Origin: an uncultured Alphaproteobacteria bacterium | Lineage (GTDB): Bacteria; Pseudomonadota; Alphaproteobacteria; Rs-D84; CACZYB01 | Length of the DNA: 32,000 nt | Reading direction: 5' to 3' | Assembly: GCA_934246625.1 (NCBI GenBank) | Contig: CAKQHZ010000002.1 | Location: forward strand, 132,817-164,816 | Shown: positions 7,111-29,888 of the stretch, piece by piece | Layout of the letters: every line of letters begins with the position of its first letter | Numbering within the stretch: the stretch's first letter is position 1 | Notes under the pieces: generated by a model | What the model was told of the DNA's origin: nothing | The model's input: only the letters and a program-made list of their open reading frames with translations | Database searches by the model: none | Position numbers and translations under genes: made by a program

Positions 7111-7140
7111 AAAATCCGTCAGTTTTTGGCGGATTTTTAA
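7111..7140 (+). terminator. Rho-independent terminator
   Basis: aatccgtc/ggcggatt hairpin followed by TTTTTAATTTT. Confidence 0.5.
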
Positions 7141-7165
7141 TTTTGCAAATAATACTTGCAAAAAT

Positions 7166-7219: not shown

Positions 7220-7242
7220 AACAATAAAAAAGGAGATAAAAT

Positions 7243-8079: not shown

Positions 8080-8100
8080 CTTTAACAAAAGGAAATAAAA

Positions 8101-8349: not shown

Positions 8350-8362
8350 TTTAGTGTGATAA

Positions 8363-8387
8363 ATCCCCAGTTTTGGGGATTTTTTTT
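8363..8387 (+). terminator. Rho-independent terminator after the capsid operon segment
   Basis: atcccc (8363-8368) pairs with ggggat (8375-8380), followed by T8. Confidence 0.65.
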
Positions 8388-8399
8388 AAGGAGAAATTT

Positions 8400-8957: not shown

Positions 8958-8965
8958 GTGTTGGT

Positions 8966-10870
8966 ATGTATAAACAAATTATTTCAAATACAAATTTTGC
9001 GTTTGGTGAAATTTCTCCTTATCTTTTTGGAAGGGGAGATATTGAGGCATATAAAAATGGTGCTATGACTATGTCAAATATGACAGTTATTCCCACAGGT
9101 GGAGTTAAGCGTCGAGCAGGATTAAAGTTTTTGTGTGATTTGCCAAATGCTGGAAAATTGATAAATTTTGATTACTCTTCTTTGGAAAATTTTTTACTTT
9201 ATTTCAGTGAAAATATTTTGTGGATTTATAATAGCATTGGTGAAAAGGTTGCAAGTCTTATGACTCCATTTTCCATTGCTCAATTATCAAATATACGATG
9301 GTCGCAAAAGGGAAATCAATTATATATTGTGCATAAAGATGTTGCACCAAAAGTTTTGAAATATTATCCTCTTGAAGATAATTGGATTTTGGAAGATTGG
9401 CAATATGCGGTAAGTGATAAAAACTTTTCTTGTGAACCATTTGCAAAGTTTGAAGACACAGAAAATATTATGATTACTCCGTCTGGAAAAACTGGTGAAA
9501 TTTCATTGGTTTCATCACAAAGTTTGTTTGATAATTCGTTTTTGGGTATTAAACTTCTTATTGATGGAGGTGAAGTTTGTATTACTCAAATAATTTCTGG
9601 AACAGAGGCAAAGGCTGTTGTAAAAGCAGAATTGAGTGCTTTGGTTGCAACTTCTTCTTGGCAAGAACAGGCATTTTCGCTTAAGCGTGGTTTCCCAAAA
9701 AGTATTGCATTTCATCAAAACAGATTGGTGATTGGTGGGTCAAAAAGTTTGGCGAATAGATTGTGGTTTTCAAAAACAGGAGAATATTTTAATTTTGATT
9801 TGGGTGAAGGTCTTGATGACGAAGCGATTGAGTTTGATTTATTGTCAGACAGAGTTAATGAAATTTTGTGTGTTTTTTCAGGAAAGCATTTACAAATTTT
9901 TACATCAGATTCTGAATGGATGGTGTCTGGGTATCCATTGACACCAACTTCATTGACGGTAAAGCAACAAACCAAAATTGGTTCTGTGGCAGATAAATTT
10001 ATTTCACCAAAACTTGTTGAAGGTTCAACTATATTTGTTGCAAAAAACAACAAAGAAATTCGAGAATTTTTTTATGGAGATATTTCTGAAAATTATTCGT
10101 CCGAAGATTTAATTTTGCTTTCAAATCATTTAATGAATAAACCAAAAGAATTGGATTACGATATTAAAAACCGAATGCTTTATGTTTTGCAAAGTGATGG
10201 GACTATATCAATATTGCTTACAAATAAAACCAATGCTATAAATGCGTGGTTTAAGTATGAAACTCAAGGTGAATTTATTTCGCTTAATGTGTTTAATAAT
10301 ACTTTATATGTTATTGTTAAACGAGATGATAAGTATTTTTTAGAGTATTTGTCCGATGATGTGATGACAGATTCTTCTTTGACTTTTTCTTTTGATACAA
10401 AGGTTGATAAGATTGTTGGAATTTCACATTTGAACAATAAAATTGTTAGTGTTAATGCGGATAATTATGTTTTTGATGTAAAGGTTGAAAATAATGAACT
10501 TATACTTCCTTTGTCAGCAAAAAATGTTTTTTTGGGATTAAGTTATACACATACTTTGTGTCCGTTGCCAGTGTTAATAAATGGGGTTGTCCCACCAAAA
10601 ATTGTGCGACTTTTTGAGTTGACTTTTCGTGTGGTTGATACTCCTTTATTACAAATTGATACTGGTGATGGAATAAGAAATATTACTTGTATGGATTTTG
10701 ATAAGGATAATATCCTTGATAATTCGTTGGTGCCATTTAATGGTGATATTCATATCAAAGCAAAAGGTTTGATTAAAAATTTTGAAGTCCCATTATGGAA
10801 GGTGCAAAGTTCAAAACCTTATAATGTAAAAATTTTAAATATTTCTGCAAAAATTGGTAGTGTAAAATAG
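8966..10870 (+). CDS. Tail tubular protein B / nozzle, T7 gp12-like
   Basis: It sits directly after the gp11-like gene. The N-terminus NFAFGEISPYLFGRGDIEAYKNGAMTMSNMTVIPTGGVKRRAG resembles the gp12-type opening (GGISQQP..R....G...NG.....G..KRP). 634 aa. Confidence 0.6.
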   Translation: MYKQIISNTNFAFGEISPYLFGRGDIEAYKNGAMTMSNMTVIPTGGVKRRAGLKFLCDLPNAGKLINFDYSSLENFLLYFSENILWIYNSIGEKVASLMTPFSIAQLSNIRWSQKGNQLYIVHKDVAPKVLKYYPLEDNWILEDWQYAVSDKNFSCEPFAKFEDTENIMITPSGKTGEISLVSSQSLFDNSFLGIKLLIDGGEVCITQIISGTEAKAVVKAELSALVATSSWQEQAFSLKRGFPKSIAFHQNRLVIGGSKSLANRLWFSKTGEYFNFDLGEGLDDEAIEFDLLSDRVNEILCVFSGKHLQIFTSDSEWMVSGYPLTPTSLTVKQQTKIGSVADKFISPKLVEGSTIFVAKNNKEIREFFYGDISENYSSEDLILLSNHLMNKPKELDYDIKNRMLYVLQSDGTISILLTNKTNAINAWFKYETQGEFISLNVFNNTLYVIVKRDDKYFLEYLSDDVMTDSSLTFSFDTKVDKIVGISHLNNKIVSVNADNYVFDVKVENNELILPLSAKNVFLGLSYTHTLCPLPVLINGVVPPKIVRLFELTFRVVDTPLLQIDTGDGIRNITCMDFDKDNILDNSLVPFNGDIHIKAKGLIKNFEVPLWKVQSSKPYNVKILNISAKIGSVK

Positions 10871-10891
10871 GTTAAATGAAAGGATAATAAT

Positions 10892-11338
10892 ATGGGAGCA
10901 AGTGCTGGTGTTGCCGCAGTTCTTACTGCTGCGGATAGTATTATTGATTATAGAGAAAAAAAGAAGCAACAAAAGGCAAATGAAAAATTATTAAATCAAC
11001 AACAGGAAGTCAAGGAAGAAGAAAATGAAATAAAAAAACAAATTTTAAAAGATGAAAAGACAAATTTGCTTAAAACAAAATTGGCTTCGCAAAAGGCAAA
11101 GTTAGGTGCAAGTGGACTTGTGTCAACAACTGGGTCTTCGGCTGCTTATCTTTCAAGTTTGGAAAAGGATACAGATGAGGAAATTTTGAAAAAAACTTCG
11201 CTTAGTGATTTGAATTTATTAAATGAAACGGCAAATTATGATTACAGAAAAAAGCTAAATTTATTAGATCAAGCAAAGAATGATTATGATTTTTCAAAAG
11301 GCTTGGTTAATAACATTTTTTCAAAAAAATTATTTTAG
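10892..11338 (+). CDS. Small coiled-coil protein in the internal-virion-protein (gp13/gp14) position
   Basis: 148 aa with a hydrophobic N-terminus (GASAGVAAVLTAA) and a K/E-rich coiled-coil-like middle. Assigned from position only. Confidence 0.5.
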   Translation: MGASAGVAAVLTAADSIIDYREKKKQQKANEKLLNQQQEVKEEENEIKKQILKDEKTNLLKTKLASQKAKLGASGLVSTTGSSAAYLSSLEKDTDEEILKKTSLSDLNLLNETANYDYRKKLNLLDQAKNDYDFSKGLVNNIFSKKLF

Positions 11339-11350
11339 GAGAGTTATGTT

Positions 11351-12073
11351 ATGGGTAAAAATAGTTTAGTAAAACATATATATATTTGTGATGGTGTGCA
11401 AAAAAATTTTGACTATCAATTTGAAAGTTTTTCAAAAACAAGTATAAAAGTTTTTATTGATAACTTGATGATAAAATCTGGGTATGAGATAGTTCCATTT
11501 TCTGACAAGGTTGGTGGAAAAATTATTTTTAATACTCCTCCTTTGAAAGGGAAAGTTTTATCGATTATTCGTGAGTTAGATTTTTCACGAAGTTGTGATT
11601 TTCAAACAGGTGGAATTTTTCGTGCTGAAGATTTGAACTATGAACTTAACTATAATATTGCTTGTCTTAATCAAGTCAATGATGTTTTAACTTTGGCAGT
11701 TAAACTTTCACCACTTGATACAAAAATAAATCCAGTATTGCCAAAGGCAAAAGCAGGCTATGCAATTGTTTGGAATGATACAGAAGATGGATTTTCAAAT
11801 TTAGATGTTAATATTACAGAGCAAGTTCGTTATGTTGAAGATTGCACAAATCTTGTTGAAAATCTTTATAATGATTTAAGTGATTTATTTGCAAGCAATT
11901 CTGATATAGGAGTATTGGGGTTTGTGAATAATTTGCTTACGATTTTAAAAGAACATCATGGTGAAGCGTTTGTTGATTTTCAAAATCTTAATTGTGTAGC
12001 AAATGATGTTATTGATTTTGGAAATGTGTCTGATGAATCACAAATTAGTGTGAAAGATAATGGAATACTTTGA
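11351..12073 (+). CDS. Tail fibre protein, T7 gp17 N-terminal (tail-attachment) domain only
   Basis: YICDGVQKNFDYQFESFSKTSIKVFID...LSIIRELDFSRSCDFQTGGIFRAEDLNYELN parallels T7 gp17 YQLDGSNRDFNIPFEYLARKFVVVTL...[31 protein letters not shown]. Only 240 aa, against 553 aa in T7. Confidence 0.7.
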   Translation: MGKNSLVKHIYICDGVQKNFDYQFESFSKTSIKVFIDNLMIKSGYEIVPFSDKVGGKIIFNTPPLKGKVLSIIRELDFSRSCDFQTGGIFRAEDLNYELNYNIACLNQVNDVLTLAVKLSPLDTKINPVLPKAKAGYAIVWNDTEDGFSNLDVNITEQVRYVEDCTNLVENLYNDLSDLFASNSDIGVLGFVNNLLTILKEHHGEAFVDFQNLNCVANDVIDFGNVSDESQISVKDNGIL

Positions 12074-12668
12074 TAAAAAAATCAGTTTTTTGGATTTTTT
12101 GAAAGATTGGTATAAAACTCAGGGACTTTTGTTTCCAGAACATCATAAAAAAATTGCAAAATGGTTGGAGAGTGTTTATTTTTCTGATAAAAAGCGAGGG
12201 CTTTTGCTTGCTTTTCGAAGTAGTGGAAAGTCAACGGTGGTTGGGCTTTTTTGTTCGTGGCTTTTGTATATAAATCCGAATTTAAGGATTTTGGTTGTTG
12301 CAGCAGATACTATGTTGGCAAAAAAGATGGTGCGAAATATCAAATATATTGTTGAACTTCACCCATTATTGGAAAGTATTAGACCAAAGAAAAAGCAAGA
12401 ATGGGCATCTGGAAGTTTTACCGTGGAAAGAAATTTGGTGTTAAGGGACCCATCTGTGATGGCTGTGGGACTTTTATCAAATTCGACTGGAAGCAGGGCT
12501 GATGTTATTATTTGTGATGATGTGGAGGTGCCAAAAAATTGTGATACTTATCAAAAACGGTGTGATTTGAGAGAGAAATTGTTGGAGTTTAATTTTATTT
12601 TGGTGCCTAATGGTATGCAAATTTTTATTGGGACACCGCATACTTTGGATACTATTTATAAAGTTTAG
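12060..12668 (+). CDS. Terminase large subunit, N-terminal fragment (Walker A/B ATPase core); split gene
   Basis: LLAFRSSGKSTV (Walker A), PNLRILVVAAD, DPSVMAVGLLSNSTGSRADVIICDDVEVPKNC (Walker B) and IFIGTPHTLDTIYKV-stop closely track T7 gp19 ([73 protein letters not shown]). The ORF stops exactly after the LYK-equivalent residues. Confidence 0.85.
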   Translation: MEYFDKKISFLDFLKDWYKTQGLLFPEHHKKIAKWLESVYFSDKKRGLLLAFRSSGKSTVVGLFCSWLLYINPNLRILVVAADTMLAKKMVRNIKYIVELHPLLESIRPKKKQEWASGSFTVERNLVLRDPSVMAVGLLSNSTGSRADVIICDDVEVPKNCDTYQKRCDLREKLLEFNFILVPNGMQIFIGTPHTLDTIYKV

Positions 12669-12763: not shown

Positions 12764-12894
12764 GTTTCGTTAATAAGAAAAAAGAATTTGCCGAGACGAC
12801 CCCTCATTTCGGCAGATCTGGTGAAAGCCAGTAATAATCCCCTAAGTCATTCCCTCCTTATTTTCTCTCTCCTCGACTTGGGGGATATTTTTTT
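12764..12894 (+). ncRNA. Candidate sRNA with a CU-rich (anti-SD-like) loop
   Basis: It lies downstream of the consensus promoter. Hairpins are tgccga/tcggca (12789-12814) and ctgg/ccag. A 10-bp stem atcccctaag/cttgggggat (12837-12846 / 12877-12886) encloses the 30-nt loop tcattccctccttattttctctctcctcga, followed by T7. No credible ORF is present; the track ORF 12749..12931 starts with TTG inside the -10 box. Confidence 0.35.
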
Positions 12895-13133
12895 GTCGGG
12901 ACGCCCGAGTAATCTCACAAAGGCAAACTAGAATTTTCTACTAACCCCGTAGAAAATTAAGTTTTTGTTTGTTCGGTTTCTCTCTCCTCGACTTGGGGGA
13001 TATTTTTTTAGTTCAGAAAAGTTAGGATTTGTGAGCTTTTGTTGTGTTTTTGAGGGAAAATAGTCAAATTTGTAAAAAATGTGTGAAAAATTAGAATTTT
13101 CTGTTGAAATTTTGGTTTTAAATTGCTAAAAAA

Positions 13134-13358
13134 GAATCAGTTTTTGAAAAGATTCTCGAATCGATAGTAAAATTTAAAAAAAAGAATCGATTCTTGGTGG
13201 TTTTTTAAGGTTTTATTTTATAGACAATTTGAAATTGCAAAAAGAATCTTTTAATTTTTAATATGTTGTTTTTACAGCATTCTTTTTTGTTTTTTGATGG
13301 CTAATAAGTTGCCAAAAAAAGAATCTCTTGACTTTTTTTGTCGATTGCTTTAAGAATC
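13134..13358. promoter_or_regulatory. Cluster of AAGAATC / GANTC motifs, including the palindrome AAGAATCGATTCTT
   Basis: GANTC sites lie at 13134, 13151, 13158, 13184, 13189, 13244, 13321 and 13354, mostly within A-run+GAATC words. The perfect 14-bp palindrome lies at 13182-13195. Confidence 0.5.
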
Positions 13359-13738
13359 GTTGTATGAGGCGAGTGGAAATTTTCCATTTTGTTTCAAACA
13401 TATTCCCTGTTGCGTTCCTTTTCTCTCCTTTCCTCCTTCTCTCCTCGCAACGGGGGATTTTTTTATACTTGAGTTTTTTTCTGACTGATTCCCTTCGTTA
13501 ATGTCTCACTTACGATTTGTTAAGATGCTAGTTTTTTGCAGGGTGGCGTGGCAACAAGCTAAGCAAACCTAAAACTTTTCACTAATGCCGTTCAAAGTTT
13601 AAGGATAGCTATGCTTGGTGTCTCTTCGCAACGGGGGATTTTTTTTATATAATCTCTTCTCAAGATAGTTAAATTTGCATAAAATGAAAAAAATAACTTG
13701 CGTTTTGGGAAAATATAGGTTATAAACTTGTTATCTTT

Positions 13739-13814
13739 GGCTAGGTAGCTCAGTCGGTAGAGCAAAGGACTGAAAATCCTTGTGTCGGCAGTTCGATTCT
13801 GCCCCTCGCCACCA
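13739..13814 (+). tRNA. tRNA-Phe(GAA): tRNA-Phe (anticodon GAA), CCA encoded
   Basis: 76 nt. The D arm is GCTCAGTCGGTAGAGC, the anticodon arm aagga-CTGAAAA-tcctt, and the T arm ggcag-TTCGATT-ctgcc, ending in ACCA. There is one U:C mismatch at acceptor pair 4:69. Confidence 0.9.
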
Positions 13815-13847
13815 TTATTGGTCCCCCGTTTGGGGGATTTTTTATTT

Positions 13848-14141
13848 GTGTCGGCAGTTCGATTGTCCTCGTGATTGAAAATCACTCGTTCGTCCCGTAA
13901 GCCTAAAACTTCGCCAAAGGCTCGTGTTTAGGCAACTATCGACTCCTGCCCCTCGCCACCACTATTGGTCCCTCATTTGGGGGATTTTTTATTTGTGTCG
14001 GCAGTTCGATTGTCCTCGTGATTGAAAATCACTCGTTCGTCCCGTAAGCCTAAAACTTCGCCAAAGGCTCGTGTTTAGGCAACTATCGACTCCTGCCCCT
14101 CGCCACCATTATTGGTCCCCCGCTTGGGGGATTTTTTATTT
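13848..14141. repeat. 147-bp tandem repeat x2 (plus a 12-nt start of a third unit), each unit a tRNA-Phe 3' half interrupted by 81 nt
   Basis: gtgtcggcagttcgatt recurs at 13782 (inside the tRNA), 13848 and 13995, and partially at 14142. The period is exactly 147 bp, and the units differ at only a few positions in the terminator stem. Confidence 0.9.
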
Positions 14142-14222
14142 GTGTCGGCAGTTTATTGACTTTTAAACCTTCGTTAAATGAGTTTGATGTCATATAGTTT
14201 CTTTGCAAAGTAAGGCAAAACC

Positions 14223-14321: not shown

Positions 14322-16004
14322 ATGATAGGAGAAGGAAACTTCGGCTATAATTCACAAAATGATGATGAAATTCAAAATTTTATTCCACGAATCACTGTAA
14401 TGGGTGTTGGTGGTGCTGGTTGTAATGCTGTTGGCAATATGATTTCTCAAGGTATTGATGGTGTGGATTTTGTTGTGGCAAATACTGATGCTCAATCTTT
14501 GATGTTGTCAAAGGCTCCTCGTAAAATTCAACTTGGAAAACAAACTACTCGTGGATTTGGTGCTGGCTCAAAACCAGAAGTTGGTAAAACTGCGGCTGAA
14601 GAATCTTTGAATGAAATTGCAGATGTCGTTAAAAATGCAAATATTCTTTTCTTGACTGGTGGTATGGGTGGTGGAACTGGAAGTGGTGCTATACCTGTGA
14701 TTGCATCTGTGGCAAAGGAAAAGGGAATTTTGACTATTGCAATTATTACAACTCCTTTTGATTTTGAAGGTGAAAAGAAAAAACGTATTGCAGAGGAGGC
14801 AATAGCTGAATTACTTCCTAATGTGGATTGTGTTATTACTTTGCCAAATCAAAATTTGTTCAAGGTTGCGGATAAACAAATGTCATTTATCAATGCCTTT
14901 AAACTTTCTGATAATGTCCTTTATGAAGGTGTTAGAAATATTACAGATTTGATTATGAAACCTGGTTTGATTAACCTTGATTTCGCAGATATAAGAACTG
15001 TGATGGAAGGTCAGGGAAAAACCATTATTGGAACAAGTGTTCAAAGTGGTGAAGATAGGGCATTGAAAGCAGTGAAGGGTGCTTTGCTTAATCCTCTTCT
15101 TTCTAATGAAAGTATTAGTGGGGCAAAGGGTATTTTGGTAAATATTACTGGTAATGCTGATAATCTTTCTTTGGAAGAAGTTAATGATATTATGAATACA
15201 ATTCGTGCCGATATAAATTCAAATGATGTTAATTTCGGCTTTGGAACTTGCTTTGACCCATCTATGGGTGATAGCTTGAAAGTTGCTATTATTGCAACTG
15301 GTATTAACGGTGATAATGTTAAAACAGATGTAAATACAACAAAAACAGAAGTTAATAATACTTCTTATAATTCATTTAATAATGTTGCAACTTCTAAACC
15401 TTACTCATTTACAAATATTGAAGAAAAAAAAGAAGAAGTTCGTGTTGAGCCAAAACCAATGGAAAAGCCTATGCCTAGTTTTATGGAAGAAACAGTTGTA
15501 AGTGATAATAAACTTGATAATTTCTTTAAAACCGGTGATGAAAAGGATATTCAAGCCTTTATTGATGAGGAAGCAGAAAAACTTAATGTCGCAAGTTCTG
15601 TTTCAAATGAACTTTTTTCTGATGAAAAAAATAGTATTTTAGATAGTAATGAAGATACTTCTTCTTTGGATAATGTATCTTTGAATGGCAATGGTGATGA
15701 TGACCATGATCCTGAACCACCAAAGGGAAAAAAGAAAAATCCTTTGTCTTCTTTCTTTGATATGATTGGTGAAAAGGATAGTGATGATACTTTTTTTGAT
15801 GATGTGGAAAAAGATGATAATGGTGATGTAAAATTTGAAAATCAATCTGAAATATCAGATAAAAAAGAAGATGATAATGTCGTTTTCTTGGCTGGAAATT
15901 TGGATACAAAGGACCCAGATGATAAGCAAATTGATTTGATGGAAATGATAAAGAAAATGGAAGAAACTTTGGAAATTCCTGCGATATTTAAAAAAGGTTC
16001 ATAA
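14322..16004 (+). CDS. ftsZ: Cell division protein FtsZ (long acidic C-terminal linker)
   Basis: GVGGAGCNAV, the tubulin signature GGMGGGTGSGA, and NLDFADIRTVM are all present. An acidic linker of about 230 aa ends in LEIPAIFKK, which looks like the conserved C-terminal peptide. Confidence 0.95.
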   Translation: MIGEGNFGYNSQNDDEIQNFIPRITVMGVGGAGCNAVGNMISQGIDGVDFVVANTDAQSLMLSKAPRKIQLGKQTTRGFGAGSKPEVGKTAAEESLNEIADVVKNANILFLTGGMGGGTGSGAIPVIASVAKEKGILTIAIITTPFDFEGEKKKRIAEEAIAELLPNVDCVITLPNQNLFKVADKQMSFINAFKLSDNVLYEGVRNITDLIMKPGLINLDFADIRTVMEGQGKTIIGTSVQSGEDRALKAVKGALLNPLLSNESISGAKGILVNITGNADNLSLEEVNDIMNTIRADINSNDVNFGFGTCFDPSMGDSLKVAIIATGINGDNVKTDVNTTKTEVNNTSYNSFNNVATSKPYSFTNIEEKKEEVRVEPKPMEKPMPSFMEETVVSDNKLDNFFKTGDEKDIQAFIDEEAEKLNVASSVSNELFSDEKNSILDSNEDTSSLDNVSLNGNGDDDHDPEPPKGKKKNPLSSFFDMIGEKDSDDTFFDDVEKDDNGDVKFENQSEISDKKEDDNVVFLAGNLDTKDPDDKQIDLMEMIKKMEETLEIPAIFKKGS

Positions 16005-16079: not shown

Positions 16080-17576
16080 ATGATTGAAAAGGAAATTTTT
16101 GATAAAAATTTTGTTGATGATGTCTATAACAGATATTTGAATGCAATAGAGAAAAGGTCAGTGTGGGAAAGTTATTGGGAAGAATGTTATGAATATGCTT
16201 TGCCACAAAAAAGTGGAACTTTTAATGGTGAAAATTTTTCTAATGTAAAGAAAAATACAAATGTTTTTGATTCCACTGCGGAATCTGCAGTTGACAGACT
16301 TGCAAGTAGTCTTCTTTCCCAACTTACTCCACCATGGTCAAAATGGTTTGGGTTGGAATTTGGTATTGATATAGCTGATGATGATAAAAAGGAAAAGTAT
16401 CTTCAACTTGAAAATATTGAAAAGATTTTGCAATCTCATTTGGATAGGTCAAATTTTTATGTGGAAGCTCATCAATGCTATTTGGATTTAATTACGGTTG
16501 GAACTGCGGTTATGTTATTTGAAGAAAATGCAGTAGGTGAAAATTCCGCATTTAAGTTTACTTCTGTGCCAATGAATGAAGTTGCGTTTGAAGAAAATAC
16601 GAATGGAAAGTTGGATACTGTATTTCGTCGTTCTTATGTCTCACTTGCAAATTTAAAAATAAGGTTTGCCAATGTTATTTTTGATGAAAAACAACAGGAA
16701 ATTATTTCCAAAAACCTTGATAAAAAAGTGTATGTGATAGAGGCTGTGTTGCCACGAATAACTTCTTCTGGACAACAGGGATATAATTATATTGCGTTTA
16801 TTGATGATGTAGAAAATATTTTTAATAGCTCTGTTAAAATAATTCTTAAAACAGGAGTATTTGCAAATTCTCCGTTTATTTGTTTCAGATGGCAAAAGGT
16901 TAGTTCTGAAATTTATGGAAGGTCTCCTGTGATGAAGGCTTTGCCAGATATTAAAACCGCAAATAAAGTTGTGGAACTTATTCTTAAAAATGCGTCTATT
17001 GCAGTAAGTGGTATTTGGCAAGCAGATGATGATGGCGTTTTGAATCCGCAAAATATAACTCTTGCTCCAGGAACAATTATTCCAAAGGCAGTTGGTTCTA
17101 GTGGGCTTACTCCACTTAGAAGTGGTGCCGATTTTGATGTTTCTCAGTTGGTATTGTCTGATTTGCGTGCAAAGATAAATCATTGTTTACTTGTGGATCA
17201 ATTAGATGTGTCAAATAATTTTAAAATGACTGCAACAGAAGTGATGGAAAGAATAAATCAAATATCTCGTGTGTTGGGGGCAACCTATGGCAGACTTCAA
17301 TCTGAATTTTTGACACCTGTGGTTATTCGTGCAATTTCTATTTTAAAAAGACGTGGTGAAATTTCAGATATACTTGTTAATGGATATGAAGTTGATTTGA
17401 AATATCAATCTCCACTTGCTCAAAATCAAATTGTTCGTGATGCAGAAAATATTTTGAATTGGATAAAAACTTTGTCAGAAGTGTGTGGTGATGCAACAAG
17501 TGTTATTGATAAAAAAGCGGTTGCGTTATATTTGGGAAAAGTTTTTGGTATTTCAGAACGATTGATTTGTGCATAG
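16080..17576 (+). CDS. Portal (head-to-tail connector) protein, T7 gp8-like
   Basis: VYNRYLNAIEKR..W.ECYEYALPQ, VDRLASSLLSQLTPPWSKWF, YGRSPVMKALPDI and MTATEVMERINQISRVLGATYGRLQSEFLTPVV parallel T7 gp8 (VYERLKNDR...CAQYTIPS, LNNLASKLMLALFPMQTWM, YGRSYIEEYLGDL, VTAEEIRYVASELEDTLGGVYSILSQELQLPLV). Confidence 0.85.
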   Translation: MIEKEIFDKNFVDDVYNRYLNAIEKRSVWESYWEECYEYALPQKSGTFNGENFSNVKKNTNVFDSTAESAVDRLASSLLSQLTPPWSKWFGLEFGIDIADDDKKEKYLQLENIEKILQSHLDRSNFYVEAHQCYLDLITVGTAVMLFEENAVGENSAFKFTSVPMNEVAFEENTNGKLDTVFRRSYVSLANLKIRFANVIFDEKQQEIISKNLDKKVYVIEAVLPRITSSGQQGYNYIAFIDDVENIFNSSVKIILKTGVFANSPFICFRWQKVSSEIYGRSPVMKALPDIKTANKVVELILKNASIAVSGIWQADDDGVLNPQNITLAPGTIIPKAVGSSGLTPLRSGADFDVSQLVLSDLRAKINHCLLVDQLDVSNNFKMTATEVMERINQISRVLGATYGRLQSEFLTPVVIRAISILKRRGEISDILVNGYEVDLKYQSPLAQNQIVRDAENILNWIKTLSEVCGDATSVIDKKAVALYLGKVFGISERLICA

Positions 17577-17586
17577 TGAGGATATT

Positions 17587-18465
17587 ATGGAGGAAGATTT
17601 TAGCTTGCCTTTTTTGGCTGGGTTTGATGTCCTTAAAATTCCAGTTATTGAAAATGGGATTCCTGTATGGCCTGAAAAATTCCCGATTGAAAAAATTGAG
17701 GAATTAAAGGTTCGGGTTGGAATGACAAAATTTTCTTCGCAAATGCTACTTAATCCTGTGCAATTAAATAAAGGGCGATTTGATATAAACAAGTTAAAAT
17801 TTTATAATTCTGATTTGTGTGTAGAGGAACATAATCACCTTTTGACCTTTACAATAAATGGTAAAAAAGTTGTCAGTTGTTCGTGTTGGTGGGATCCTTC
17901 GTATGGTTCAATCGGTGGTGATGGAAGTGTTATATCTGTTGTCTTTATTGATGTGGAAGGGCATTACTATCTTCATGACATAAAATATCTTTATCATTCG
18001 GATAAGAAAAAGGAAGAAATTCAATCGGCATTGGAACAATGTCAGCAGGTTGGTGAGTTTGTTAAGGCAAACTATATACCTTCGGTTTATGTTGAAACGA
18101 ATGGTATTGGTAAATTTTTACCAGAGTTTTTAAGAAATGAGTTTTTGAAAATGGGAATTTCCGCTGGGGTTGTTGAAAAGGTTTCTAGGGTTTCAAAAAA
18201 TCTTAGGATTTTAGATGCTTTTGATGTGATTACTTCGGCAGGATATTTATATGTTAATGAAAAGGTGAAAAATACCCCTTGGGTTGCGGAATTTTGTGAT
18301 TGGGGTGTTGATTCAAAAGCTCATGATGATGGACTTGATAGTGTGGCTGGTGCAATTTCGTCTGTGCCAGCCAAGTTGCCTATTTCTGTGTTGGCAAAAC
18401 AAAGAAAAGTAAGTTTTGCAGGGAAAACGTATAGGGTAAAGACAAATTTTGATATAGACTTTTGA
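17587..18465 (+). CDS. Terminase large subunit, C-terminal fragment (rest of the ATPase domain plus RNase H-like nuclease); split gene
   Basis: I prefer the ATG at 17587, which has a GAGGA SD 5 nt upstream; the track uses the GTG at 17569, overlapping the portal stop. IPVWPEKFP...MTKFSSQMLLNP matches T7 gp19 IIWPALYP...GKAGFTLQFMLNP. The nuclease motifs are WWDPSYGSIGGDGSVISVV, VYVETNGIG and KAHDDGLDSVAGAI (T7: ALAHDDRLDALA). Confidence 0.85.
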   Translation: MEEDFSLPFLAGFDVLKIPVIENGIPVWPEKFPIEKIEELKVRVGMTKFSSQMLLNPVQLNKGRFDINKLKFYNSDLCVEEHNHLLTFTINGKKVVSCSCWWDPSYGSIGGDGSVISVVFIDVEGHYYLHDIKYLYHSDKKKEEIQSALEQCQQVGEFVKANYIPSVYVETNGIGKFLPEFLRNEFLKMGISAGVVEKVSRVSKNLRILDAFDVITSAGYLYVNEKVKNTPWVAEFCDWGVDSKAHDDGLDSVAGAISSVPAKLPISVLAKQRKVSFAGKTYRVKTNFDIDF

Positions 18466-25146: not shown

Positions 25147-25806
25147 ATGTTTAAAAAATTTTTAATTTTGTTTTTTGTGATTGGGTTTGGTTTTGTCTTT
25201 GATGCTTTTTCACAAACAAGGACTAGAGCCCATTATGGACGTGGAAATGGTTTTACTTTTTCTCAAGATGCAAAGGAGCGAATTAGACTTGGTTGTCCAA
25301 ATGTTTTAAGACGTGCAAATCAATTTTCAAAGGATATGAAAACAAAGGGTGCATCAAATATTGAATCTGAAATCATTTATATGTGTTCAGTTAATTCTAT
25401 TGAACTTGAAAAGGGGGATTTGGGTCCATGGAAAAAATTTGTTCATGCCCTTGAAAAGGTATTTAAGCAATTCAGAAATCTTATTTATCTTGCCGCTATA
25501 TTTATGCTTCTTTGGATTATCGTAAAGGCTATGTATGAAGGTGATATGAAGTGGATGCATATTGGTATGATGGTTTTGGGTATTACTATGCTTTCGTTTG
25601 CAGAGGTGTTTTTGGATATTGCAACCAATAGAGTTACCATAGATGATATTCGAAATAGTGAAATTTATGTTGATTGTCGTGAACCTGATAGAGGTCTTTA
25701 TATTTGTTCTGTGGATACAGATGGTGCGGTTGATAAAGAATCTGTGTATTTATATGATGTGAATCACAAGGCAACTAAAACCAAAGTCTTTAAAGGACTT
25801 TATTAG
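25147..25806 (+). CDS. Secreted/membrane protein with a central two-helix hydrophobic hairpin; unknown function
   Basis: The signal peptide is MFKKFLILFFVIGFGFVFDAFS. The two adjacent TM helices are LIYLAAIFMLLWIIVKAMY and MHIGMMVLGITMLSFAEVFLDIA. Cys pairs are present in both flanking soluble regions. Confidence 0.55.
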   Translation: MFKKFLILFFVIGFGFVFDAFSQTRTRAHYGRGNGFTFSQDAKERIRLGCPNVLRRANQFSKDMKTKGASNIESEIIYMCSVNSIELEKGDLGPWKKFVHALEKVFKQFRNLIYLAAIFMLLWIIVKAMYEGDMKWMHIGMMVLGITMLSFAEVFLDIATNRVTIDDIRNSEIYVDCREPDRGLYICSVDTDGAVDKESVYLYDVNHKATKTKVFKGLY

Positions 25807-26300: not shown

Positions 26301-26330
26301 TCCCCCGCCAATCGGTTGGGGGATTTTTTT
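26301..26330 (+). terminator. Rho-independent terminator
   Basis: tcccccgcc pairs with ggttggggga, followed by T7. Confidence 0.65.
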
Positions 26331-26352: not shown

Positions 26353-26381
26353 TTGATATTATTCTTAAAATGAGATATTAT
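26353..26381 (+). promoter_or_regulatory. sigma70-like promoter of the surface-protein locus
   Basis: TTGATA (26353-26358), a 17-nt spacer, then TATTAT (26376-26381). Confidence 0.4.
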
Positions 26382-26428
26382 ACATATAAGTTTAACCAAT
26401 GAGAAAGGAAAAAATATGTTAGACAAAT

Positions 26429-27922
26429 TTGACAAAACGGGGGGGGGTAAAACAGGTAAATAATTCTGAAACTTCTCTTAAAATCAATTCTGGTTTTAAA
26501 TCAATAAAATTCGGTTTGGTTAGTTTTTTAACCATTGCAACCTTGATAGGTGCAACATCTGTAAATGCAAGTCCTCGTAGAAATAGAAGACAAGGTAAAA
26601 CAACCCTTAACCAAAATAATACAAGAATTAATGCTGGTATGACTTCTGGTTATAGTAATAAATTTTTTACAAATACTCTTATTACATTTATGGAACAAAG
26701 ACAAATTGATGTTGATACAGTTATCAATGCAGGAACAACAACAGGAATAGCTTTATTAAAGGCAGATGTTGTTGGTAATAAACCAGCATATAAACTTTGT
26801 TTCCCTTGCTCTTCTATTGTTATGAAAGGTAATGTTGAAGAAGCAACGAGTATGACTGGTGAAAAATGTTATACTTTAAAGGCTGGTGATTTTAAATCTC
26901 AAATAGTTATTCCTGCAAATGCACAAAAAACTTGTGGAGATTTATCTTCAAAACGTTTAACAATTCGTTCAAATGATGAATTTGAAACAATCGCGGATAG
27001 TGCAAATTTGGCAATAGTTCAAAATGATTTTGGTGTGGATTATGATAATATTGCTCTTTCTGAAGATACTGAAACAAAGGAACTTTCTCAAGTTTTTCTT
27101 GATGCAAAAGCAAAGGCAGTAGAGGCATGTGTAAATTCTGATTTTTCAAAATCTTATGATACTGTAAAGGGTTTATTTATTGGTTCAACTGTTGCTTCTG
27201 GTGTTGCAACTGGAACTGGTGCTGCGGGAACAGCTATTAGTGCTCTTAATATAAATAAGGGACAAAGTGCAACAGTAGATTATGACAAACTTAAAAAACT
27301 TGTTGATGTAGATGTATCTGTGAAAGATTATTTTAAATGTGAAACAAAGAAAGCTCTTAACACTATTGTTGATACAGATGAAACTTGTGATATTACTTCT
27401 GGAACAACAGATAGTAGTGTAAAAACTGTATTTGCTAAGGCTTTGGCAATGAAAGATTTAAACAATGAACTTTTTTCTGAAAAATTTATGTCTTTTGTTG
27501 ATAAATATAAAACTGAAACAGATGAGACTAAAAAAACAGAATATGCAAATGAATTAAAGTCAAGAAAATCTTCTTTGATTAAGGATTTTGAAAATGTTGA
27601 TGATTTAGTTGCAAATGTAGTTTCTGCACAAAAATCACTTGAAACAAAACTTTCTTTTGTGGAAGAAAATCTTATTGATAAAATTGAAAGTGATAAAAAT
27701 TTAAAGAAAAAGTATGCAATGACAGGAGCAAATATTGCTAATGTGGCTTTGTCTGGTGCAACATCTGTGTCTGGTGTAGCTACTTCTGTGATGGGATTTA
27801 GTGCTGTTGGTGAAATTGATAAACTTATCAATCGTGTAAAAGAATGTAAATCTGCAGCGTCAAAAATGTATGATGCAGGTCTTGCTCTTGAAGCTCAATT
27901 ACAAGAATTAAAAGGAGAATAA
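26429..27922 (+). CDS. Secreted Cys-containing, glycine-zipper-rich protein, large paralogue A (probable true start ATG 26416, out of frame at G9)
   Basis: Track ORF from a TTG start. The signal peptide is IKFGLVSFLTIATLIGATSVNA|SP. It shares SGY..K.F.N..IT..E.R.I......N.G..G......D.....YKLC.PC, EAC..S and a C-terminal ..CK.AA.KM..AG.ALE with the 28450 ORF. Confidence 0.7.
   Translation: MTKRGGVKQVNNSETSLKINSGFKSIKFGLVSFLTIATLIGATSVNASPRRNRRQGKTTLNQNNTRINAGMTSGYSNKFFTNTLITFMEQRQIDVDTVINAGTTTGIALLKADVVGNKPAYKLCFPCSSIVMKGNVEEATSMTGEKCYTLKAGDFKSQIVIPANAQKTCGDLSSKRLTIRSNDEFETIADSANLAIVQNDFGVDYDNIALSEDTETKELSQVFLDAKAKAVEACVNSDFSKSYDTVKGLFIGSTVASGVATGTGAAGTAISALNINKGQSATVDYDKLKKLVDVDVSVKDYFKCETKKALNTIVDTDETCDITSGTTDSSVKTVFAKALAMKDLNNELFSEKFMSFVDKYKTETDETKKTEYANELKSRKSSLIKDFENVDDLVANVVSAQKSLETKLSFVEENLIDKIESDKNLKKKYAMTGANIANVALSGATSVSGVATSVMGFSAVGEIDKLINRVKECKSAASKMYDAGLALEAQLQELKGE
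26439..26447 (+). promoter_or_regulatory. Homopolymeric G9 tract 21 nt after the SD-preceded ATG (candidate slipped-strand phase-variation switch)
   Basis: The ATG at 26416, with an AAGGAAAAAA SD, reads MLDKFDKTGGGKTGK-stop at G9. With G8 (or G11) it would read straight into the 497-aa ORF. This is the only G/C run longer than 5 that I noticed in the window. Confidence 0.6.
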
Positions 27923-27923
27923 T

Positions 27924-28325
27924 ATGAAAATTTCCAAAATAGTTTTAATGGCTGTTGCAATGTTTTCTTTGACTGCAAATGCAAATACTAAATTTACAGT
28001 TAATGATAAAGATGCAGCAGAATATTGTAAAAATTTAGATGTTAATAAAATTGAAAAACTTAAAAGTTTGGCTACAACCTCTGCTATTGGTGGAGTTGTT
28101 GGTGCTGCTTCTGGTGCATCTGGAGTTGCGACTTCTTTGATAAGTGGTTCAAAACTTTCTGATGAAAAAGGTAAAAAAGGACTTGATATTGCAACCACAA
28201 TTACCTCTGGTTTAGGGGCAACAGCTGGAATTATGTCTGTGTCAACCAGTGGTGCTGGGCTTGCTGAAATTGAAGGTATCTTTGATACAATCAATAAATG
28301 TAAGGAAAAAATGTCAAAAATTTAA
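27924..28325 (+). CDS. Secreted small glycine-zipper protein, small paralogue A
   Basis: The signal peptide is MKISKIVLMAVAMFSLTANA. There are two uncharged G/A/S/T-rich segments (LATTSAIGGVVGAASGASGVATSLISG and LDIATTITSGLGATAGIMSVSTSGAGLA) and two Cys. Its start lies 1 nt after the stop of the large gene, with the SD inside that gene's 3' end. Confidence 0.7.
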   Translation: MKISKIVLMAVAMFSLTANANTKFTVNDKDAAEYCKNLDVNKIEKLKSLATTSAIGGVVGAASGASGVATSLISGSKLSDEKGKKGLDIATTITSGLGATAGIMSVSTSGAGLAEIEGIFDTINKCKEKMSKI

Positions 28326-28449
28326 TTATTATTTCGTCTTTTTTATAAAAACAAACTCTTCGTTTTGAGGGGTTTGTTTTTTTTGTTGTTTATGTCTAAA
28401 TTTTATGATATAATACAGATAATTTTGTATAAAAAGGAAAGGAAATAAT

Positions 28450-29445
28450 ATGAAACAAAAAGTTAGTTTAGTTTCTTTGGCTTTGCTTCTTGCCTTTACA
28501 TCTGTTGATGCAGGTGCAAGGGTTTCTCGTTCAAGACATGCTTCTTCAAAGAAAATTAGTTCAGGTTTGGTCTCTGGATATAATGATAAAATTTTCGTTA
28601 ATCCATCAATCACATTGATTGAAAAGCGTTCTATTGAACTTGCTCCACTTATCAATGTTGGTGAAAATGGTATCGGAAAAATTACAAGAAAAGCAGATGG
28701 CACAGAGCCATATTATAAACTTTGCATACCTTGTGCAAATATATTCTTAGAAGCAACTTTGGCTGATGGAAGTTTTAAATCTTTGACTGCTAATGGAAGT
28801 TGTTATTCTTTGGAACCTGGTGCAAAATATACTATTGCAACAGCTGATGGTGCAATTAACACTTGCGGTTCAAAGTTAAGAATGACAATCAATGATATGA
28901 GAAGTGCTGCAAAAACAGAAGTTGATAGTGTTGTTTTAAATCTTCTTCCAAACAGCAGTGCTTATGATTACACAAATATTCAGCTTGGTCAAGATACTTT
29001 GATGACAGATTTGATTACTGATTATAATGATGCAAAACGTGAAGCGATTGAGGCTTGCACTTCTAGCAACATTATGGAAACATTGGATATTATCAAAGGT
29101 TGGATGATTGCTTCTGTTTCAGGAAGTGGTGTTGCAACTGTAACAGGTGCTACTGATACTGCTTTTCAAACTATTGAAACTGTGAAAGGTGATACTAAAG
29201 TAGGAAATGGTGTTCTTCAAGGGACATTGTCAGCAGTAAGTGCAACAGGTAATACTTTGTCAATGACTGGTGCAATCGTTTCTGCAGTGCAACTTGATAA
29301 ACTTGTTTCAAGTTTGGATAAGTGTAAAAAAGCTGCTCAAAAAATGAACAATGCTGGTGTTGCTTTGGAATATGGATTGGCTGACTTGATGTCTGCTGAT
29401 GAAAGCAATGTTAAAACATCAACAGAAACAAAAACTGAAGAATAA
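28450..29445 (+). CDS. Secreted Cys-containing, glycine-zipper-rich protein, large paralogue B
   Basis: The signal peptide is MKQKVSLVSLALLLAFTSVDA. It is collinear with paralogue A but lacks about 160 aa of the middle region. An extended -10 (TGATATAAT) lies upstream. Confidence 0.75.
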   Translation: MKQKVSLVSLALLLAFTSVDAGARVSRSRHASSKKISSGLVSGYNDKIFVNPSITLIEKRSIELAPLINVGENGIGKITRKADGTEPYYKLCIPCANIFLEATLADGSFKSLTANGSCYSLEPGAKYTIATADGAINTCGSKLRMTINDMRSAAKTEVDSVVLNLLPNSSAYDYTNIQLGQDTLMTDLITDYNDAKREAIEACTSSNIMETLDIIKGWMIASVSGSGVATVTGATDTAFQTIETVKGDTKVGNGVLQGTLSAVSATGNTLSMTGAIVSAVQLDKLVSSLDKCKKAAQKMNNAGVALEYGLADLMSADESNVKTSTETKTEE

Positions 29446-29456
29446 AGGAGTTTAAT

Positions 29457-29888
29457 ATGAAAAAATTATTTATACTTATGTTTTCATTATTATCTGTTGC
29501 TGTAAAAGCAGAAAAGCCAGTTTTCCCAAGATATACTGAAAATGAAAAGGCAACAGTTAATCATTGTAGAGCAATTAATACTTCAAAAATAGAAGAAATC
29601 AAAGGAAGAATGATTGCAGTTGGTGTTGTAAGTGGTATTAGTGCTGGTGCAAATACTTATTCTGCTGTTGTTAACTATGCTAAATTCGATAAGGCAGGAG
29701 CTGATGCAGATGAGAAGAAAAAAGCCTCAGCTACGGCTCACGGAATTGCATCAAATATTGCAACTGGTGTGGCTGCGGCTGGTTCTATTACTTCTACTGG
29801 TTTGACTGGTGCAAGTTTGGCAGATTTGGAAAACATTATTGATAATGTTAAAAAATGTCAAAGCGGTTTAAACTCACTTAGCTATTAG
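29457..29888 (+). CDS. Secreted small glycine-zipper protein, small paralogue B
   Basis: The signal peptide is MKKLFILMFSLLSVAVKA. It has the same architecture as 27924..28325 (C....N.SKIE.IKG, G/A/S-rich segments, LE.I.D.V.KC). Confidence 0.75.
   Translation: MKKLFILMFSLLSVAVKAEKPVFPRYTENEKATVNHCRAINTSKIEEIKGRMIAVGVVSGISAGANTYSAVVNYAKFDKAGADADEKKKASATAHGIASNIATGVAAAGSITSTGLTGASLADLENIIDNVKKCQSGLNSLSY

What the first reader, a model, noticed from the sequence alone, without database searches (positions are those of the whole stretch)
26416..26463. G9 homopolymer directly after the start codon of a secreted protein: likely phase-variation switch, currently OFF
The SD-preceded ATG at 26416 reads through G9 (26439-26447) into a stop at 26461-26463. 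Deleting one G (or adding two) fuses it in frame to the 497-aa signal-peptide protein. The only in-frame start in the present state is a TTG at 26429, which has no SD at a usable distance.

A 9-nt G run is very unlikely by chance in DNA this AT-rich. It also sits exactly where contingency loci place their repeats. The paralogue at 28450 has no such tract.
Basis: partly seen in the sequence, partly recalled or inferred. Interest (0 to 1): 0.8.

Follow-up and report, generated by a model that had tools for sequence, protein, structure and literature searches.

The report
Poly-G on/off switch, secreted protein gene
A run of nine G's just after the start codon of a secreted-protein gene in an uncultured human-gut alphaproteobacterium changes length between otherwise identical strains, which marks it as a classic slipped-strand on/off (phase-variation) switch, here read in an out-of-frame state.

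Summary
An SD-preceded ATG at 26416 reads through G9 (26439-26447) into a TAA at 26461-26463. Removing one G fuses it to the 497-aa signal-peptide ORF. G9 is the only G/C run longer than 5 in the 32-kb window (about 0.02 expected).

The decisive evidence comes from 28 homologous loci in independent gut-metagenome assemblies. The tract occurs as TG7, TG8, TG9, G9, G10, AG5, AG6 and AG9, so all three reading frames are seen. Nine assemblies with 0 SNPs and 0 other indels over 4.6-7.3 kb differ only in tract length (TG7/TG8/TG9). Six other runs of 7-8 nt in those flanks do not vary.

All 20 other start sites inspected in the window use ATG with an AAGGA/AGGAG-type SD-like motif. ATG 26416 fits that pattern and TTG 26429 does not. 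The tract lies in an N-terminal extension of about 29 codons that no homologue has. The gene is a lineage-specific duplicate, is hypervariable between alleles (88.8% identity against 96.5-100% for flanks), and is under selection (dN/dS about 0.55, no internal stops).

Verdict: a genuine homopolymeric-tract contingency locus. It is a new member of a well-known kind, in an unstudied lineage. "Currently OFF" is likely but inferred. The protein's function is unknown.

The parts
26302..26330 (+). Terminator-like hairpin (CCCCC...GGGGG) plus T7 that ends the upstream HU gene, so the switch gene starts its own transcription unit
   Evidence: Read directly. The same CCCCC..GGGGGATTTTTT motif recurs in the window. 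The terminator scan did not list it because its loop exceeds 8 nt.
26353..26381 (+). Sigma-70-like promoter candidate, TTGATA-17 nt-TATTAT (10 of 12 matches)
   Evidence: This is a consensus match only. The region is conserved in 26 of the 28 related loci; L030/L031 differ upstream.
26404..26409 (+). Shine-Dalgarno AAAGGA serving ATG 26416
   Evidence: the 20 other start sites inspected in the window use ATG, nearly all with an AAGGA/AGGAG-type motif a few nt upstream, and this site fits. It is conserved in the related loci (AAAGGG in L030/L031).
26409..26414 (+). A-run in the SD-ATG spacer, itself length-polymorphic (A6 here; A5 in most loci; A7 in L037/L038)
26416..26463 (+). Out-of-frame leader ORF in the present G9 state (MLDKFDKTGGGKTGK*). 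In the ON state (one G fewer) the ATG at 26416 is the start of the full protein.
   Evidence: The 501-aa ATG-started form, P0006, was found on 18 contigs.
26439..26447 (+). G9 homopolymeric tract, the hypermutable switch element (codons 8-11 of the ATG frame)
   Evidence: Length polymorphism across assemblies. It is the only difference within an otherwise identical clone.
26429..27922 (+). 497-aa ORF as open in the G9 state, from a TTG with no SD. It encodes a secreted protein of an unannotated family: a beta-rich domain at about residues 80-200, Gly/Ala/Ser/Thr-rich hydrophobic segments, a helical region, and a conserved C-terminal motif with an invariant Cys.
   Evidence: No Pfam or NCBIfam match. 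Family alignment A1. AF2 model with mean pLDDT 57. No PDB fold match.
26498..26569 (+). Signal-peptide coding region (KSIK n-region, FGLVSFLTIATLIGA h-region, VNA|SP cleavage-type site). Homologues start here, so everything upstream (26416-26497) is a lineage-specific extension that carries the tract.
   Evidence: Alignment A1. The sequence was read directly; the signal peptide is inferred, not run through a predictor.
26516..26518 (+). Downstream in-frame TTG. Gene callers fall back on it when the tract is in the third frame, giving the 467-469-aa 'MVSLL/MVSFL' forms. It has no SD.
27924..28325 (+). 133-aa secreted small partner gene. Its SD lies inside the end of the 497-aa ORF and its ATG is 1 nt after that ORF's stop, so it is probably co-transcribed and possibly affected by polarity.
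   Evidence: Synteny holds in the related loci that extend that far.
28347..28391 (+). Intrinsic terminator (16-bp stem plus T-run) that closes the two-gene unit
28450..29888 (+). Ancestral paralogous module without a tract: a 331-aa large protein (28450-29445) and a 143-aa small protein (29457-29888). It is the only module present in the related species L019 and L020.

Best explanation
The G tract is a hypermutable simple-sequence repeat. It switches translation of a secreted or surface protein gene on and off by slipped-strand mispairing during replication.

Transcription probably starts at the promoter-like site around 26353-26381. Ribosomes load at the SD (26404-26409) and initiate at ATG 26416. 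With 8 or 11 positions in the tract, that ATG is in frame and produces a 501-aa pre-protein, whose unusual N-terminal extension of about 33 residues precedes a normal signal peptide. With 9 positions (this window), ribosomes stop after 15 codons. With 10, they stop after 11 codons.

The window is therefore most likely in an OFF, or at best strongly reduced, state. The co-transcribed 133-aa partner gene may be affected by polarity.

What is shown:
- the tract, the frames and the start-site pattern;
- tract-length polymorphism between otherwise identical strains;
- the lineage-specific origin of the extension;
- allelic hypervariation of the gene with selective constraint.

What is inferred:
- slippage as the mutational mechanism;
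- reversibility and a high switching rate;
- the expression consequence;
- surface exposure, and immune or phage selection as the driver.
For: 1. Anatomy: SD, ATG, G9 and stop as described.

2. Tract states: 29 loci including the window show TG7 (x5, ATG frame), TG8 (x4), G9 (x2), AG5 (x3), TG9 (x2), G10 (x4), AG9 (x5) and AG6 (x1), plus two degenerate forms. Each of the three sub-lineages, defined by the first base (G, T or A), has several lengths, which implies at least 5 independent length changes.

3. Identical clone: L001, L003, L004, L006, L009, L010, L011, L012 and L013 come from different samples. They have 0 SNPs and 0 other indels over 4.6-7.3 kb but carry TG7, TG8 or TG9.

4. Internal control: the other runs of 7 nt or more in that clone's flanks (T7 x2, T8 x2, A7, A8) are invariant.

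5. Start site: the 20 other start sites inspected in the window use ATG, nearly all with an AAGGA/AGGAG-type motif a few nt upstream. ATG 26416 matches this pattern and TTG 26429 does not.

6. ON form exists: the ATG-started 501-aa protein P0006 is present on 18 contigs.

7. Origin: all homologues start at the signal peptide, and only this gene has the extension holding the tract. Related species have a single module and no G/C run of 7 or more near it.

8. Selection: in L017 the flanks are 96.5-100% identical to the window but the gene body is 88.8% identical. Mosaic alleles exist (P0021, P0024). dN/dS is 0.55 overall, 0.22 in the beta domain and 1.4 against L035, with no internal stops.

9. 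Precedent: G runs of 9 or more are the accepted threshold for candidate phase variation in Neisseria, and pilC has a genic G(9-20) tract (PMC5953494).
Against: - No read-level data were available, so heterogeneity within one population and reversibility are not shown.
- Several assemblies have only 2-6x coverage (contig names).
- The ON frame is the minority, about 18 of about 130 counted contigs. The TTG frame is the commonest at about 73. That could mean the TTG frame is not truly OFF.
- Short-tract lineages are fixed out of the ATG frame. AG5 is in the TTG frame. L018 has G5 in the third frame with a newly created in-frame ATG. L030/L031 have lost the SD-proximal ATG (ATG to ATA). This pattern is as expected for a switch being locked or lost, but it also fits partial decay.
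- Only one such tract was seen in 32 kb, and no genome-wide census could be made.
- My choice of which protein variants to look up biases the table of 29 loci.
Confidence: 0.8

Rival explanations
1. The tract is hypermutable but not an adaptive switch. The duplicated gene is dispensable and drifting toward pseudogenisation, and the G tract is merely the first place where it breaks.
For: - The ON frame is a minority, about 14% of counted contigs.
- L030/L031 have lost the start codon, and a TAG closes the TTG frame.
- The L018 lineage carries a 240-bp in-frame deletion.
- AG5 is fixed out of the ATG frame.
- dN/dS is elevated (0.55; 1.4 against L035).
Against: - All 29 protein variants inspected, which together account for roughly 130 contigs, keep the ORF open to its normal C-terminus. 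None has an internal stop or frameshift outside the tract.
- dS of 0.17-0.19 with dN/dS of 0.22 in the beta domain shows purifying selection across divergent alleles.
- SD, ATG and the first 7 codons are identical in 27 of 29 loci.
- The L018 lineage gained a new in-frame ATG exactly at the tract, which suggests selection to keep making the protein.
- Localised allelic hypervariation and mosaicism are typical of expressed surface antigens.
Confidence: 0.1
2. The gene is expressed constitutively regardless of tract length. Possible routes are initiation at TTG 26429, reinitiation after the short leader ORF, or RNA-polymerase or ribosome slippage on the G run. The DNA length differences would then have little phenotypic effect.
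For: - The TTG frame is the commonest state, and the AG5 variant is fixed in it.
- In L018 the leader ORF's stop (TAA) lies 7 nt downstream of the new in-frame ATG, a geometry compatible with termination-reinitiation coupling (inference).
- Transcriptional slippage on long homopolymers is known in bacteria (own knowledge).
Against: - TTG 26429 lies about 19 nt from the SD and has no SD of its own. None of the 20 other start sites inspected shows such an arrangement.
- In the G9 state the leader stop is 32 nt downstream of the TTG, which is far for back-scanning reinitiation.
- The third frame has no start codon until TTG 26516, which would remove the charged n-region of the signal peptide.
- Recoding sites are normally conserved in length, whereas this one varies across all three frames.
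- Bacterial transcriptional slippage is documented mainly for A/T runs (own knowledge).
Confidence: 0.07
3. The length differences are homopolymer sequencing or assembly artefacts, and the true tract has one fixed length.
For: - Homopolymers are error-prone.
- Several contigs have 2-6x coverage.
- No raw reads were inspected.
Against: - Each state recurs in several independent assemblies made with different pipelines (ENA MEGAHIT/SPAdes-style assemblies and Logan).
- Lengths span 5-10, not plus or minus 1 around one value.
- G9 is seen at 18.9x coverage in L017.
- A8, T8, A7 and T7 runs in the same contigs never vary within the clone.
- Tract variants are linked to haplotypes through the first base (G, T or A).
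Confidence: 0.03

Closest known systems
Neisseria gonorrhoeae / N. meningitidis pilC1 and pilC2 poly-G phase variation
   Same: A G tract inside the 5' coding region of a gene for an exported surface protein. Gain or loss of one G shifts the frame and turns the protein ON or OFF. Tract length is polymorphic among strains. pilC has a genic G(9-20) tract (PMC5953494). That the tract lies in the signal-peptide-coding region is my own knowledge (Jonsson et al. 1991).
   Different: There is no sequence or fold relationship, since the protein here belongs to an unannotated family. The tract here lies in a novel N-terminal extension upstream of the signal peptide's charged n-region. The runs are shorter (5-10). 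The organism is an uncultured gut alphaproteobacterium. Switching has not been measured.
Campylobacter jejuni poly-G contingency loci (e.g. Cj1295; PMC3068675, listed)
   Same: Intragenic G8-G10-type tracts stand out in an AT-rich (about 30% GC) genome of a gut-associated bacterium, with ON/OFF switching by frameshift.
   Different: C. jejuni carries dozens of such tracts, mostly in surface-glycan modification genes (own knowledge). Here only one tract was seen in 32 kb, and the genome-wide number is unknown. The lineage is also different (Alphaproteobacteria).
Population-genomic inference of homopolymer-tract phase variation, e.g. in the Mycobacterium tuberculosis complex (PMC10334774)
   Same: The same kind of evidence is used: recurrent, homoplastic length changes of a homopolymer among closely related genomes, taken as the signature of reversible frameshifting.
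   Different: That study used tens of thousands of isolate genomes and experimental validation. Here the evidence is 29 metagenome-derived loci with no experiment.
Frameshifted genes rescued by transcriptional slippage on homopolymers in endosymbionts (own knowledge: poly(A) tracts in Buchnera and Blochmannia)
   Same: A homopolymer near the 5' end puts the ORF out of frame in the genome sequence of a small, AT-rich, host-associated bacterium.
   Different: Those tracts are A/T runs with a fixed DNA length, rescued at the RNA level. Here the DNA length itself varies among strains and covers all three frames.

Membership tests
Simple-sequence-repeat (homopolymeric tract) contingency locus / phase-variable gene | A mononucleotide repeat long enough to be hypermutable (commonly G/C of about 7-9 or more) | tested here: met
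   G9 at 26439-26447. Related loci carry G7-G10. The threshold of 9 or more is used in PMC5953494.
Simple-sequence-repeat (homopolymeric tract) contingency locus / phase-variable gene | The repeat is placed so that unit changes alter expression (within the ORF near the 5' end, or in the promoter) | tested here: met
   The tract occupies codons 8-11 after the SD-preceded ATG. Lengths of 8 or 11 are in frame, while 9, 10 and 7 terminate after 15, 11 and 10 codons. Start-site pattern.
Simple-sequence-repeat (homopolymeric tract) contingency locus / phase-variable gene | Repeat length varies among closely related strains faster than the surrounding sequence | tested here: met
   Nine loci with 0 SNPs and 0 other indels over 4.6-7.3 kb carry TG7, TG8 or TG9. 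The other runs of 7-8 nt are invariant. Eight length states are seen overall.
Simple-sequence-repeat (homopolymeric tract) contingency locus / phase-variable gene | Length heterogeneity within a single population, and reversible high-frequency ON/OFF switching | not testable with these tools
   No raw reads and no culture were available. Only consensus assemblies could be compared.
Simple-sequence-repeat (homopolymeric tract) contingency locus / phase-variable gene | The expression state follows the repeat length (protein present only in in-frame variants) | not testable with these tools
   Inferred from the frames and SD pattern only.
Simple-sequence-repeat (homopolymeric tract) contingency locus / phase-variable gene | The gene product interacts with the environment (surface, secreted, R-M and similar) | tested here: inconclusive
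   A signal-peptide-like N-terminus is conserved across the family, and the gene shows allelic hypervariation and mosaicism. However, there is no family, fold or localisation assignment.
Programmed recoding site (ribosomal frameshift or transcriptional slippage) | The slippery tract and the out-of-frame arrangement are conserved among relatives | tested here: not met
   Tract length and frame differ among near-identical strains, and in-frame genomic versions exist.
Frameshifted pseudogene | Loss of constraint downstream of the lesion (further stops or frameshifts, dN/dS about 1 throughout) | tested here: not met
   The ORF is intact in every variant inspected. dN/dS is 0.22 in the beta domain and 0.55 overall. 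It is 1.4 against L035, which is compatible with diversifying selection but keeps this open for part of the gene.
PilC/PilY1 or any annotated adhesin/toxin family | Sequence or fold similarity to the family | tested here: not met
   No Pfam or NCBIfam hit. Only 9 related representatives at E<1e-30 among 1.84 billion proteins, none of the 10 hits scanned carrying a Pfam domain above its curated cut-off. Best Foldseek PDB hit has E about 0.14.

The most novel reading that the evidence does not exclude
The tract is not a binary switch but part of a three-state translational rheostat built on a leader ORF.

- ATG frame: full SD-driven expression of a pre-protein with a long N-terminal extension.
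- TTG frame (the commonest state, and that of the window): low expression, by leaky TTG initiation or by reinitiation after the 15-codon leader peptide.
- Third frame: silent.

The 'locked' L018 lineage would have converted this into constitutive leader-coupled expression, by creating an ATG 7 nt upstream of the leader's stop.

In addition, the large + small secreted pair, with glycine-rich hydrophobic segments and a shared C-terminal Cys motif, would be a previously undescribed surface or membrane-active system of a host-associated gut alphaproteobacterium under immune or phage selection.
Probability: 0.15. Interest if true: 0.6.

Novelty: new member of a known kind. Interest (0 to 1): 0.45.

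Why it matters
Homopolymeric-tract phase variation is textbook biology in Neisseria, Haemophilus, Campylobacter and Helicobacter. It has hardly been looked for in uncultured commensals known only from metagenomes.

Here public assemblies alone show a contingency locus operating in an uncultured, AT-rich alphaproteobacterium of the human gut, seen in Hadza, Nepali and other cohorts. The switched gene is a lineage-specific, hypervariable, secreted protein of an unannotated family.

That marks this protein, and its small partner, as the likely interface between the organism and host immunity, phage or a eukaryotic host. It also gives a concrete target for read-level population analysis.

There is a practical warning for annotation too. 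Gene callers split this one gene into products of 501, 497, 496, 467-469, 413 and 388 aa depending on tract length and allele.

Tried and rejected
- **Genome scan with the 497-aa protein:** no relative found. The species itself seems absent from the one-genome-per-species collection at this locus. RmuC then recovered only relatives of 78% identity or less. Both scans are now used.
- **JGI metagenome pattern scan across the tract:** 0 hits.
- **Look-up of P0010, the exact window protein:** not on record for DNA retrieval, although it is listed on 6 contigs.
- **Family libraries:** Pfam and NCBIfam on the protein, its paralogue and its partners gave nothing above the curated cut-offs. Pfam on distant HMMER hits gave nothing useful.
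- **Rfam on the window:** only two tRNAs, so no riboswitch or leader RNA at the locus.
- **First multi-locus indel listing:** cluttered by contigs with unrelated upstream sequence (L002, L016). Only the within-clone comparison and the listed homopolymer indels were used.
- **A naive upstream comparison of L029 with the window:** invalid because of the A5/A6 offset, and discarded.
- **Interpretations rejected:** sequencing error, programmed recoding and simple pseudogene (see rivals and membership tests).
- **Other switch-like repeats:** the long A/T runs in the window (A8-A10, T8) are mostly terminator tails or lysine-rich coding stretches.
Full report
**1. The observation**

- AAAGGA (26404-26409) is followed after six bases by ATG 26416.
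- The reading frame runs ATG TTA GAC AAA TTT GAC AAA ACG GGG GGG GGT AAA ACA GGT AAA TAA.
- G9 is at 26439-26447 and the stop at 26461-26463.
- The long ORF (26429..27922, 497 aa) is open in the +1 frame from a TTG.

Simulating tract lengths shows that G8 or G11 put the ATG in frame (MLDKFDKTGGVKQ...). G9 stops after 15 codons. G10 and G7 stop right after the tract.

The window is 31.5% G+C. G9 is its only G or C run longer than 5. Every C5 and 9 of the 12 G5 runs are arms of CCCCC..GGGGGATTTTTT-type terminator-like hairpins or G5 runs directly followed by a T-run. The chance expectation for a G run of 9 or more is 0.01-0.02 per 32 kb. Scaled to a genome of about 1 Mb that is roughly one, so rarity alone does not prove function.

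**2. Which start codon is real**

I listed the 25 nt upstream of 20 other start sites in the window. All use ATG, nearly all with an AAGGA/AGGAG-type motif a few nt upstream.
- ATG 26416 (gAGAAAGGAaaaaatATG) fits this pattern. It closely resembles the start of the paralogue at 28450 (aAAGGAAAGGAaataatATG).
- TTG 26429 lies about 19 nt from that SD and has none of its own.
- A sigma-70-like promoter candidate (TTGATA-17-TATTAT, 26353-26381) and a terminator-like hairpin after the HU gene (26302-26330, read directly) place ATG 26416 as the first start codon of a separate transcription unit.
- That unit continues into the 133-aa gene (ATG 27924, with its SD inside the end of the large ORF) and ends at a strong terminator (28347-28391).

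**3. Population evidence**

A search of 5.8 billion proteins found only four 90%-identity clusters. Their members have different N-termini:

| Form | N-terminus | Note |
|---|---|---|
| 501 aa | MLDKFDKTGG... | ATG start |
| 497 aa | MTKRGG... or MTKLGG... | |
| 496 aa | MTKQG... | |
| 467-469 aa | MVSLL... | called from a downstream TTG |
| 413 aa | MGVKQ... | |

Retrieving the DNA of 28 loci from independent human-gut metagenome assemblies gave the tract table:

| Frame | States (number of loci) |
|---|---|
| ATG frame | TG7 (5) |
| TTG frame | TG8 (4), G9 (window and L017), AG5 (3) |
| Third frame | TG9 (2), G10 (4), AG9 (5), AG6 (1) |

Two degenerate forms also exist.
- L018 reads ...GACAAATGGGGGTAAAAC..., a G5 run with a newly created in-frame ATG.
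- L030/L031 have the SD-proximal ATG mutated to ATA, and a TAG closes the TTG frame.

Nine loci (L001, L003, L004, L006, L009, L010, L011, L012, L013) from different samples are identical at every one of 4.6-7.3 kb of compared flank (0 SNPs, 0 indels). They carry TG7, TG8 or TG9. The six other homopolymers of 7-8 nt in those flanks never vary, which serves as an internal control against generic homopolymer error. G9 itself recurs at 18.9x coverage in L017.

Counting contigs per protein variant gives roughly 18 in the ATG frame, 73 in the TTG frame and 39 in the third frame. The count is incomplete, because only 15 of the 37 members of the largest cluster were listed.

**4. Origin of the switch**

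MipZ in the window and the RmuC relatives place the organism among uncultured gut Alphaproteobacteria. The closest species-level genomes are MAGs labelled 'bacterium' (Mgla_MAG) or 'Alphaproteobacteria bacterium', with 61-78% RmuC identity. More distant ones are labelled 'Rickettsiales'.

In the relatives L019 and L020, the interval between HU and dut holds only one large + small gene pair. It is orthologous to the window's 331-aa and 143-aa genes, and there is no G/C run of 7 or more. The 497-aa + 133-aa pair is therefore a lineage-specific duplication.

The family alignment shows that every homologue begins directly at the signal peptide (M-x-K-K-V/I-S-L...). Only the 497-aa gene has about 29 extra N-terminal codons, and the G tract lies inside that extension. 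The A-run between SD and ATG is also length-polymorphic: A5 in most loci, A6 in the window, A7 in L037/L038.

**5. Is the gene alive?**

All variants keep the ORF open. In L017 the neighbouring genes are 96.5-100% identical to the window, but the body of this gene is only 88.8% identical. Mosaic alleles combine the two allele classes (P0021, P0024).

dN/dS figures:
- 0.55 overall between allele classes, with dS of 0.17-0.19;
- 0.22 in the beta-rich domain;
- 0.70 in the helical region;
- 1.4 against L035.

This is the profile of an expressed, diversifying, probably exposed protein, not of a dead gene. Some lineages do appear to be locking or losing the switch (AG5, L018, L030/L031).

**6. What the protein is**

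It matches no Pfam or NCBIfam family. An exhaustive HMMER profile search of 1.84 billion representatives finds only 9 proteins at E<1e-30, and none of the 10 hits scanned matched a Pfam family above its curated cut-off.

The AF2 model (mean pLDDT 57) suggests a beta-rich domain at about residues 80-200 and a helical region at about 285-430. Foldseek against PDB gives nothing below E=0.1.

Large and small proteins share Gly/Ala/Ser/Thr-rich hydrophobic segments and a C-terminal helix with an invariant Cys. Function is unknown. Secretion is inferred from the conserved signal-peptide-like N-terminus.

**7. Mechanism and rivals**

The best explanation, at confidence 0.8, is slipped-strand mispairing at the G tract toggling translation from ATG 26416. 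The window is in an out-of-frame state.

| Rival | Confidence |
|---|---|
| Non-adaptive hypermutable site in a decaying duplicate | 0.10 |
| Length-independent expression through TTG, reinitiation or slippage | 0.07 |
| Sequencing or assembly artefact | 0.03 |

'Currently OFF' is likely but not proven. The prevalence of the TTG frame, and the L018 geometry (new ATG 7 nt upstream of the leader ORF's stop), leave room for graded rather than binary control.

**8. Comparison and novelty**

The mechanism is that of classic contingency loci. Neisseria pilC has a genic G(9-20) tract (PMC5953494), and that its tract lies in the signal-peptide region is my own knowledge. Campylobacter poly-G genes are a second parallel (PMC3068675, listed).

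The locus meets the sequence-level criteria for membership: repeat length, position, and polymorphism exceeding that of the flanks. Switching rate and phenotype could not be tested. The protein is not homologous to any known phase-variable protein family.

I rate it a new member of a known kind. It is a sound finding, unusually well supported for a sequence-only call. It is of moderate interest because the principle is well established, while the organism and the protein family are unexplored.

Noticed in passing
window 5330-12668 and 16080-18465: This looks like a T7-like podovirus structural module that is scrambled. It comprises scaffold (5330), capsid (7243), tail tubular A (8373), nozzle/tubular B (8966), internal virion protein (10892), tail-fibre N-terminus (11351) and the middle part of terminase-L (12060-12668, phrog_38 positions 270-458). 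Then come tRNA-Phe, ftsZ (14322-16004), portal (16080-17576) and the C-terminal part of terminase-L (17569-18465, phrog_38 positions 458-715). So the terminase gene is split into two pieces 5 kb apart, with a cell-division gene between them. It could be a prophage remnant or a domesticated particle.
   Followed up: partly
window 12862-14153: tRNA-Phe (13739-13814) is followed by three tandem 147-nt units. Each repeats the tRNA 3' end (CTGCCCCTCGCCACCA) plus a CCCCC..GGGGGATTTTTT hairpin. Further copies of a 33-nt terminator-like element lie at 12862, 12977, 13434 and 13615. The pattern looks like serial integration scars at a tRNA attachment site.
   Followed up: partly
L028 14676-16616 (-), tract at 14731-14739: In a more distant gut 'Rickettsiales' MAG, a G9 run on the gene strand sits in the last ~20 codons of a 646-aa NPPY-motif N6-adenine methyltransferase-like gene. 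It lies immediately upstream of a 184-aa specificity-subunit-like ORF. This may be a phase-variable restriction-modification system, and a hint that poly-G switches are used more widely in these gut lineages.
   Followed up: partly
window 26409-26414; L037/L038, L032-L034: The A-run in the spacer between the SD and ATG 26416 is itself length-polymorphic: A5 in most loci, A6 in the window and L032-L034, A7 in L037/L038. It is a second small repeat that could tune initiation efficiency.
   Followed up: no
L018 (gene 3001-4242), equivalent to window ~27047-27286: One allele lineage (413-aa and 388-aa forms) has a clean 240-bp in-frame deletion between two VDYD-encoding direct repeats. It removes the first glycine-rich hydrophobic segment. 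The same lineage replaced the long tract by G5 with a new ATG (L018), or lost the original ATG (L030/L031).
   Followed up: partly
window 25147-25806: A 219-aa signal-peptide protein lies between rmuC and HU, with a weak, sub-threshold TrbC/VirB2-pilin match (E=4e-4, 20.9 bits against a cut-off of 27.9). It is conserved in all relatives, down to 44% identity. One strain group has a 6-nt in-frame insertion (221 aa).
   Followed up: no
window 26416-27922 versus public gene calls: Automatic gene callers report this single gene as products of 501, 497, 496, 467-469, 413 and 388 aa, depending on tract length and allele. That splits one locus over four 90%-identity clusters and many 'different' proteins.
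   Followed up: yes
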